From assembly GCF_009914755.1 (NCBI RefSeq), contig NC_060926.1: a stretch of DNA of 64,000 nucleotides; one strand, given 5' to 3'. This stretch comes from the human T2T-CHM13v2.0 reference genome, Homo sapiens. Shown here one piece after another: positions 49,783 through 50,760 of this stretch (position 1 is its first letter; the number at the start of each line of letters is the position of its first letter). A program made the translations under genes and the position numbers. The notes beneath the pieces are model-generated. The model was given only the letters and a program-made list of their open reading frames with translations, searched no databases and had not been told where the DNA came from.

Positions 49783-50094
49783 GGCCAGACGCGGTGGCTC
49801 ACACCTGTAATCCCAGCACTTTGGGAGGCCAAGGCAGGTGGGTCAGTTGAGGTCAGGAGTTCAAGACCAGCCTGGCCAACATGGCAAAACCCTGTTTCTA
49901 CTAAAAATACAAAACTTAGCTGGGCGTGGTGGCACGCACCTGTAATCCCAACTACTTGGGAGGCTGAGGCAGGAGAATCGCTTGAACCCGGGAGGCGGAG
50001 GTTGCAGTGAACCAAGATTGCACCACTGCACTCCAGCCTGGGCGACAGAGCAAGACTCCGTCTCTAATAATAATAATAATAATAATAATAATAA
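49783..50094 (+). mobile_element. AluS with (AAT)n tail straddling the left arm/spacer boundary
   Basis: Full dimer; only its first 35 nt belong to the arm. Confidence 0.9.
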
Positions 50095-50725
50095 TTGGAA
50101 GCAAATATGGCAAAATGTGAACATTCGCTAATCCTGGATAGTGGGTCCATGAGTGTCTGCTAATCCTGGTCTGCATTTCTCAGTGTATTTCAAATACTGC
50201 ACAGTGCTAGTAAAAGAACAAAGTGTTTGCTATAAATTATTTTTTTCTAGAGATGGAGTCTCACTCTGTCACCCAGGTTGGAGTCAACCCCAACCTCCTG
50301 GGCTCAAGCGATCCTCCTGCCTCAGCCTCCCAAGTAGCTGGGACTACAGGCATGCATCACCAGGCACGGCTAAGGTTTTAATTTTAAAAATTTTTTTGGA
50401 GAGACAGAGTCTCACTATGTTGTCCAGGCTATTCTCAGACTTATAACCTCAAACTTCTGGCCTCAAGTGATCCTCCTGCTTTGGGCTTCCAAAGTGCTGG
50501 GATTACAGGTGTGAACCGCTGTGCCCGGCCTTTTCAGTATATTTCAGATAGGTCACAGTGCTAATACAAGAGTGCTTACAAAGCGTTTGCTGTAAATTAA
50601 TCTTTTTTTTTTTTTTAGACAAGTCTCACTCTGTTGCCAGGCTGGAGTGCAGTGGTGCAATCTCGGCTCACTGTAACCTTCGACACCCTGGTTCAAGTGA
50701 TTCTCCTGCCTCGGCCTCCCGAGTA
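49818..50725. other. 908-bp non-duplicated spacer of the palindrome
   Basis: Arm identity stops after ...CCTGTAATCCCAGC (49817 pairs with 50726). Confidence 0.93.
50240..50530 (-). mobile_element. AluJ-like element in the spacer
   Basis: Antisense dimer. Confidence 0.85.
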
Positions 50726-50760
50726 GCTGGGATTACAGGTGTGAGCCACCGCGTCTGGCC
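50603..50760 (-). mobile_element. Chimeric monomer-length Alu at the spacer/right arm boundary
   Basis: On -: the 35-nt head identical to the 49783 Alu, joined directly to a different right monomer and poly(A). Confidence 0.85.

What the first reader, a model, noticed from the sequence alone, without database searches (positions are those of the whole stretch)
49783..50760. Chimeric Alu marks the breakpoint that created the palindrome
Seen: arm identity ends 35 nt into the sense Alu at 49783 (GGCCAGACGCGGTGGCTCACACCTGTAATCCCAGC|ACTTTGGG). On the other side the same 35 nt are fused directly to a right-monomer continuation (|TACTCGGGAGGCCGAGGCAGGAGAATC) of a different, oppositely oriented Alu, giving a monomer-length hybrid. 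CCTGTAATCCCAGC occurs in both Alu monomers. Inference: an out-of-register template switch or fold-back between two inverted Alus about 0.9 kb apart primed the inverted duplication. The left arm plus spacer would then be the ancestral configuration and the right arm the derived copy.
Basis: partly seen in the sequence, partly recalled or inferred. Interest (0 to 1): 0.75.

Follow-up and report, generated by a model that had tools for sequence, protein, structure and literature searches.

The report
Split Alu records human palindrome's birth
The inverted 159-kb copy that gave humans two CFC1 and two POTEI/J genes sits inside a single Alu repeat, whose two halves still flank it with a 71-base overlap, so the duplication likely arose in one replication-repair error of a type already known from patients.

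Summary
Observation confirmed to the base. Arm identity stops at 49817/50726, 35 nt into sense Alu A, and the mirror side is a monomer-length A/B hybrid with 14 bp of microhomology. The decisive test did not need apes. The missing 5' 225 nt of antisense Alu B lie at the outer end of the right arm, 159 kb away. They carry the matching 11-bp target-site duplication and a 71-bp exact overlap with the hybrid; a 32-mer from the overlap matched exactly only these two places. The left arm's outer end runs on into paralogs, whereas the right arm's end joins Alu B through 2 bp. [quoted passage not shown] One two-switch replication-repair event is the likely cause. Not shown: which switch came first, which isomer formed first, and whether later Alu-Alu deletion reshaped the inner junction. 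The mechanism class is known. I found no published breakpoints for this locus, but the key paper (Dennis 2017) could not be read.

The parts
1..49817 (+). Left palindrome arm (ancestral position). It extends outside the window to -108,544 (G000:C2:130,835,456), 158,362 bp in all, and carries POTEI, CFC1B and PRSS40B.
   Evidence: outer end continuous in paralogs; gene names from the hub's annotation
49783..50103 (+). Alu A: intact sense dimeric Alu with a TAA-repeat tail and a TSD on both sides (49764-49782 and 50085-50103, 17 of 19 identical)
   Evidence: (families D2, D3)
49804..49817 (+). 14-bp microhomology in Alu A's left monomer (Alu positions 22-35), one side of the inner junction
49818..50725 (.). 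908-bp spacer. 49818-50668 is the normal-copy segment; 50669-50725 is repeated at the outer junction.
50243..50530 (-). Alu C: more diverged antisense dimeric Alu, about 150-180 bp from Alu A's tail; predicted to pair in register with Alu A as a long hairpin
50595..50605 (-). 11-bp TSD at Alu B's tail, identical to the 11 bp next to Alu B's 5' end outside the window (210313-210323; L020:313-323)
50603..50760 (-). Monomer-length hybrid Alu: A's first 35 nt joined to B's right monomer and tail (inner junction, microhomology 50726-50739)
50669..50739 (+). 71-bp stretch of Alu B present at both junctions (55 bp unambiguous, plus 2-bp and 14-bp microhomologies); second copy outside the window at 210088-210158 (L020:88-158)
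50726..64000 (-). Right arm (inserted inverted copy). It extends outside the window to 210,089 (G000:C2:131,154,089), 159,364 bp in all, and carries PRSS40A, CFC1 and POTEJ. At its far end (L020:88-323) lie the outer junction with 2-bp microhomology, Alu B's 5' 225 nt and its TSD, then single-copy flank.

Best explanation
The right arm of this palindrome is a 159-kb inverted copy inserted inside antisense Alu B, whose halves flank it with a 71-bp overlap, and it likely arose in one replication-repair event with two template switches. Shown: the ancestral order (flank, arm, Alu A, spacer, Alu B, flank); an inner junction joining B's right monomer to A's left monomer through 14 identical bases; an outer junction joining the arm's far end back to B through 2 identical bases, at the other end of the 71-bp overlap. 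Inferred: a fork stalled or broke in Alu B, possibly at the predicted A:C hairpin. The 3' end paired with the inverted 14-mer in Alu A 0.9 kb back, synthesis ran backwards for 158 kb, and the end rejoined B slightly behind its exit, copying 55-71 bp twice (MMBIR/FoSTeS type, DUP-NML-INV/DUP). The reverse order gives the same junctions but a flipped spacer, which later arm-to-arm recombination would have to turn back. Later arm-to-arm conversion likely homogenised the centre.
For: Split Alu B with an identical 11-bp TSD on both halves and a 71-bp exact overlap. A 32-mer from the overlap has 2 exact matches genome-wide, both at the junctions, among 6 matches at up to 2 mismatches. The best exact match to the inner B piece in the 29 other held sequences is 37 nt. 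The left outer end is crossed by 3 of 6 other-locus matches (97%, 98%, 91%); the other 3 stop about 40 bp short of it; the right arm covers only query 304-601. The flank beyond B has 1 match, itself. Alu A has both TSDs. The 14-mer ties for the longest exact run between A and B, 3 of 8 runs of 10 or more. The same pattern, one opposite-oriented repeat junction plus one microhomology junction, is described in PLP1 patients and attributed to MMBIR (PMC6902434, passages).
Against: Junction sequence cannot give the order of switches or the first isomer; PMC6902434 notes that three structures fit two such junctions. In the predicted single-strand fold, A's 14-mer is paired with Alu C, not B, which competes with a simple snap-back. 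Joins between different monomers are a minority: 25 of 663 deletions (PMC2041999), and 1 single-monomer chimera in a set of 493 rearrangements (10.1101/2022.06.16.496479). No ape or second human haplotype was available. About 86.5 of the 158 kb of arm (-50,000 to 36,541) was not aligned; there only annotation mirror sums support continuity.
Confidence: 0.65

Rival explanations
1. Break and fold-back. A double-strand break at Alu B was resected, the 3' end folded back on Alu A, replication made a dicentric, this broke 158 kb along, and the end captured the distal chromosome at Alu B through 2-bp microhomology.
For: The 908-bp spacer lies within the 766-70,466 bp range, and 2 of 21 junctions in that series were hybrid Alus (PMC3907307, passages). 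The junctions would look the same.
Against: That model yields terminal deletions, translocations or rings. Here nothing distal is lost, and the distal join falls inside the same Alu, at the other end of a 71-bp overlap, which needs a precise recapture.
Confidence: 0.17
2. The hybrid is secondary. The first inner junction lay elsewhere (for example an in-register A/B chimera, or a longer spacer), and a later deletion between the now same-direction Alu copies, or between monomers 133 bp apart, produced today's junction.
For: In-register 12-bp runs exist between A and B at Alu positions 9-20 and 28-39. Same-monomer joins make up 583 of 663 Alu-mediated deletions.
Against: It needs an extra event. 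No remnant is seen: the hybrid matches A exactly on one side of the 14-mer and B exactly on the other. Both breakpoints in B lie within 71 bp.
Confidence: 0.13
3. The element is a pre-existing monomer (FRAM, or an internally deleted Alu), and arm identity reached into it by gene conversion.
For: The length is monomer-like, and the inner arms show strong homogenisation.
Against: The element's own left monomer, 5' end and TSD are found 159 kb away, and that 5' end differs from the hybrid's.
Confidence: 0.02
4. Assembly artefact in a near-perfect palindrome.
For: The inner arms are almost identical; only one assembly was examined.
Against: The distal arms differ by 0.42%. CFC1/CFC1B is treated as a two-copy human-specific duplication in population data (PMC13475201). 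The two junctions agree with each other through a TSD and an overlap.
Confidence: 0.01

Closest known systems
DUP-NML-INV/DUP complex rearrangements at PLP1 (PMC6902434)
   Same: Two duplicated segments around a normal-copy one. Distal ends are joined to each other and proximal ends to each other; one junction is by opposite-oriented repeats, the other by microhomology.
   Different: Here it is a human-specific duplication in the reference genome, not a patient event. The second duplicated segment is only 55-71 bp and the normal segment 0.85 kb, not megabases. Both breakpoints of the short segment fall in one Alu.
Alu/Alu-mediated rearrangement, AAMR (PMC6071635; PMC2041999; bioRxiv 2022.06.16.496479)
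   Same: Chimeric Alu at the junction, microhomology under 25 bp, substrates about 83-90% identical.
   Different: Inverted substrates and a left-to-right monomer join that gives a monomer-length chimera, both minority classes; only one of the two junctions is Alu/Alu.
Fold-back inverted duplications with a disomic spacer (PMC3907307)
   Same: Kilobase-scale spacer bounded by inverted homology, sometimes a hybrid Alu.
   Different: No terminal deletion, translocation or ring; the distal chromosome is rejoined inside the same Alu; the hybrid is not at homologous positions.
Human-specific CFC1/CFC1B and POTEI/POTEJ segmental duplication at 2q21.1 (PMC13475201; PMC7073761)
   Same: This is that duplication; the POTEI/J split is dated there to 1.57 Mya.
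   Different: The passages I read give no breakpoints or mechanism.

Membership tests
DUP-NML-INV/DUP | Two duplicated segments separated by a normal-copy segment | tested here: met
   158-kb arm, 851-bp normal segment, 55-71-bp second duplicate
DUP-NML-INV/DUP | One junction joins the distal ends and one the proximal ends, with inversion | tested here: met
   inner 49817/50739, outer -108,544/50669
DUP-NML-INV/DUP | Both junctions formed in one replicative event | not testable with these tools
   inferred from both breakpoints lying within 71 bp of Alu B; no intermediate or outgroup available
AAMR | Two distinct substrate Alus yield a chimeric Alu at the junction | tested here: met
   A and B both identified; the hybrid matches each exactly on its side
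AAMR | Microhomology shared by the pair, mostly under 25 bp | tested here: met
   14 bp (range from PMC6071635)
AAMR (common in-register form) | Relatively complete, dimer-length chimera | tested here: not met
   133-nt offset, 144-nt body; fits the described different-monomer minority
Fold-back inverted duplication (Hermetz type) | Normal-copy spacer bounded by inverted homology | tested here: met
   908 bp, 14-bp inverted match
Fold-back inverted duplication (Hermetz type) | Adjacent terminal deletion, translocation or ring | tested here: not met
   distal sequence resumes in Alu B with overlap and no loss
FRAM (free right Alu monomer) | Inserted as a monomer, with its own 5' end and a TSD on both sides | tested here: not met
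   the 5' end is Alu A's; the matching TSD flanks a left monomer 159 kb away
Alu subfamily (AluS, AluJ) | Diagnostic positions against a curated consensus | not testable with these tools
   no repeat library is held; Rfam shows only 7SL-like monomers below the gathering score; subfamily names would be recall

The most novel reading that the evidence does not exclude
A human-specific gene duplication (CFC1/CFC1B, POTEI/J, PRSS40A/B) was born in one cell division by the same two-switch error seen in patients, triggered by an inverted-Alu hairpin. The whole event can be read from the human reference alone. A split repeat with a short overlap at the inner and outer arm ends could then serve as a general signature for reading how other large palindromes began.
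Probability: 0.4. Interest if true: 0.7.

Novelty: new member of a known kind. Interest (0 to 1): 0.52.

Why it matters
How large arm-and-spacer palindromes first form is usually hidden by age and gene conversion (my own knowledge). Here both junctions and the pre-duplication allele survive, which gives exact predictions: an intact dimeric Alu B in apes, and spacer-flipped isomers among humans. It ties a rearrangement type known from patients to the birth of duplicated human genes. It also offers unique junction markers for a locus whose CFC1 copies have no fixed differences (0 of 14 paralog variants fixed in the 1KGP European sample, PMC13475201).

Tried and rejected
FRAM, plain internal deletion and duplication of A's own right monomer: rejected. 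Test for an old repeat running through Alu A into the spacer: the downstream piece has two dispersed relatives, but neither matched the upstream flank and the upstream flank matched only the two arms, so this gave no support either way. Insertion by retrotransposition with a 71-bp TSD: rejected, since the insert is 159 kb with intron-containing genes copied from the adjacent locus. The middle 86.5 kb of the arms was not aligned. Dennis et al. 2017 and Dennis & Eichler 2016 are not held. Searches for a published breakpoint: CFC1B+breakpoint+chimpanzee, 0 papers; CFC1+breakpoint+Alu+human-specific+inverted, 0; CFC1+human-specific+duplication+Mya+inversion, 2 held and 1 listed, whose single CFC1 mention concerns read mapping; listings (20 of 115, 20 of 31 and 30 of 47 shown) had no title on this junction. 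Passages from the inversion-toggling preprint (12 of 37 places shown) and the Paraphase paper did not address this locus's junctions. No supplements were read; breakpoint tables there could already list these ends.

Full report
Observation. An inverted k-mer scan places the palindrome axis at paired-coordinate sums of 100,542-100,543. Identity runs inward to 49817/50726 and stops, leaving a 908-bp spacer. Alu A begins at 49783, so the arm ends 35 nt into it. The mirror side is those 35 nt joined to a right monomer that is not A's. Rfam shows two 7SL-like monomers in A, two in a third Alu (C, antisense, about 50243-50530) and one in the hybrid, all below the gathering score. Alu A keeps a TSD on both sides (17 of 19 identical).

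Finding the other end. I aligned 100 kb on each side from the window's own genome. Coordinates under 1 or over 64000 continue the window's numbering outside it. The arms pair from -50,000 out to about -108,500/210,090. Directly beyond the right arm lies the 5' 225 nt of an antisense Alu (210088-210312; L020:88-312). It shares 71 identical bases with the hybrid (50669-50739 and 210088-210158), and it is flanked by the same 11 bases that follow the hybrid's tail. A 32-mer from the overlap has two exact matches in the genome, these two, plus four at two mismatches elsewhere; the tool warns that repeat counts are lower bounds. Among 33 held sequences, four are these two sites, and the other 29 share at most 37 nt with the inner piece.

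Direction. A 601-base query across the left arm's outer end gave 8 matches. Besides itself and the right arm (which covers only bases 304-601), three run across the boundary (two on C2 at 97-98%, one on C11 at 91%) and three end about 40 bases before it and are uninformative. The alignment shows that the right arm alone switches to Alu sequence there. The flank beyond Alu B matched only itself. So the ancestral order was flank, arm, Alu A, spacer, Alu B, flank, and the right arm (159,364 bp against 158,362 bp) was inserted into B.

Junctions. Inner: B's right monomer (positions 155-168) and A's left monomer (22-35) share exactly 14 bases, a 133-nt offset; this ties for the longest exact run between the two Alus (3 of 8 runs of 10 or more). 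Outer: 2 bases of exact microhomology, followed by one mismatch and two more matches. There are no inserted bases at either junction. With b as the arm, c the normal segment (49818-50668) and d the 55-71-bp piece, the structure is a b c d b(inverted) d e.

Mechanism. Shown: the structure and both junctions. Inferred: one event with two template switches. In PLP1 patients the same DUP-NML-INV/DUP form has one junction between opposite-oriented repeats and one by microhomology, and the authors favour MMBIR (PMC6902434, passages). A single-strand fold of 49783-50739 pairs A in register with C (-233 kcal/mol, z -21.7 against 20 shuffles). That is a plausible fork-stalling hairpin, but it also covers A's 14-mer, which counts against a plain snap-back to B. 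The order of switches is not readable: starting from the outer junction gives the same joins with the spacer flipped. Fold-back with breakage and recapture, and a secondary Alu deletion, remain as rivals.

Age and later history. Between -108.5 and -60 kb the arms differ at 203 of 48,397 aligned bases (0.42%; 0.08-0.76% per 5-kb bin). Between -60 and -50 kb they differ by 1.6-3.7%. In the inner 13.3 kb there is 1 substitution, where about 56 would be expected at the distal rate. This points to conversion near the centre, and agrees with the lack of fixed CFC1/CFC1B differences (PMC13475201, passages). POTEI/J is dated to 1.57 Mya (PMC7073761, passages). The stretch from -50,000 to 36,541 was not aligned; in the hub's annotation both ends of CFC1B and CFC1 sum to 100,542, on the axis.

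Comparison. It works like, and meets the tested features of, DUP-NML-INV/DUP and AAMR (PMC6071635, passages). The different-monomer join is a described minority: 25 of 663 (PMC2041999, passages) and 1 single-monomer chimera in a set of 493 (bioRxiv 2022.06.16.496479, passages). It resembles fold-back duplications in spacer size but lacks the terminal loss (PMC3907307, passages; PMC9851044, passages). It is not a FRAM.

Novelty. The mechanism class is known. I found no description of these breakpoints, but Dennis 2017 was not held and no supplements were read. Verdict: new member of a known kind, unusually complete, interest 0.52.

Noticed in passing
window 50173-50246 and 50528-50609: Alu C is flanked by a direct repeat of about 75 bp (63 of 73 aligned bases identical, with a 6-bp gap). 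It may be an unusually long, old TSD. Alu B's 11-bp TSD is the end of the same repeat, which suggests that both Alus inserted at the same nick site.
   Followed up: partly
L013 (window -60,000 to -50,000) against L014-L015 (150,500-161,700): Arm divergence rises to 1.6-3.7% and the mirror axis shifts by about 1.06 kb, with off-diagonal matches near the POTE genes. This suggests internal repeats or exchange with other POTE paralogs.
   Followed up: no
L008:1150-1750; L027 (C11), L025 and L026 (C2), L029-L031 (C14, C22): The left arm's outer end lies in a block with a 91% match on C11 and 95-98% copies on C2, C14 and C22. From recall, and unchecked, this may be ARHGAP42 pseudogene sequence.
   Followed up: partly
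window 47765-47810 and 52732-52779: A short self-complementary repeat tract, present in both arms (many shifted diagonals). The only substitution in the inner arms (47809) is at its edge.
   Followed up: no
window 49684-49776 and 50767-50859: AT-rich imperfect inverted repeats lie directly outside the inner junction on both arms (I9-I12) and could add local secondary structure.
   Followed up: no
window 36542-49817 against 50726-64000: Near-perfect arm identity at the centre (1 substitution, 1 indel) against 0.42% distally: a conversion gradient along an autosomal palindrome.
   Followed up: partly
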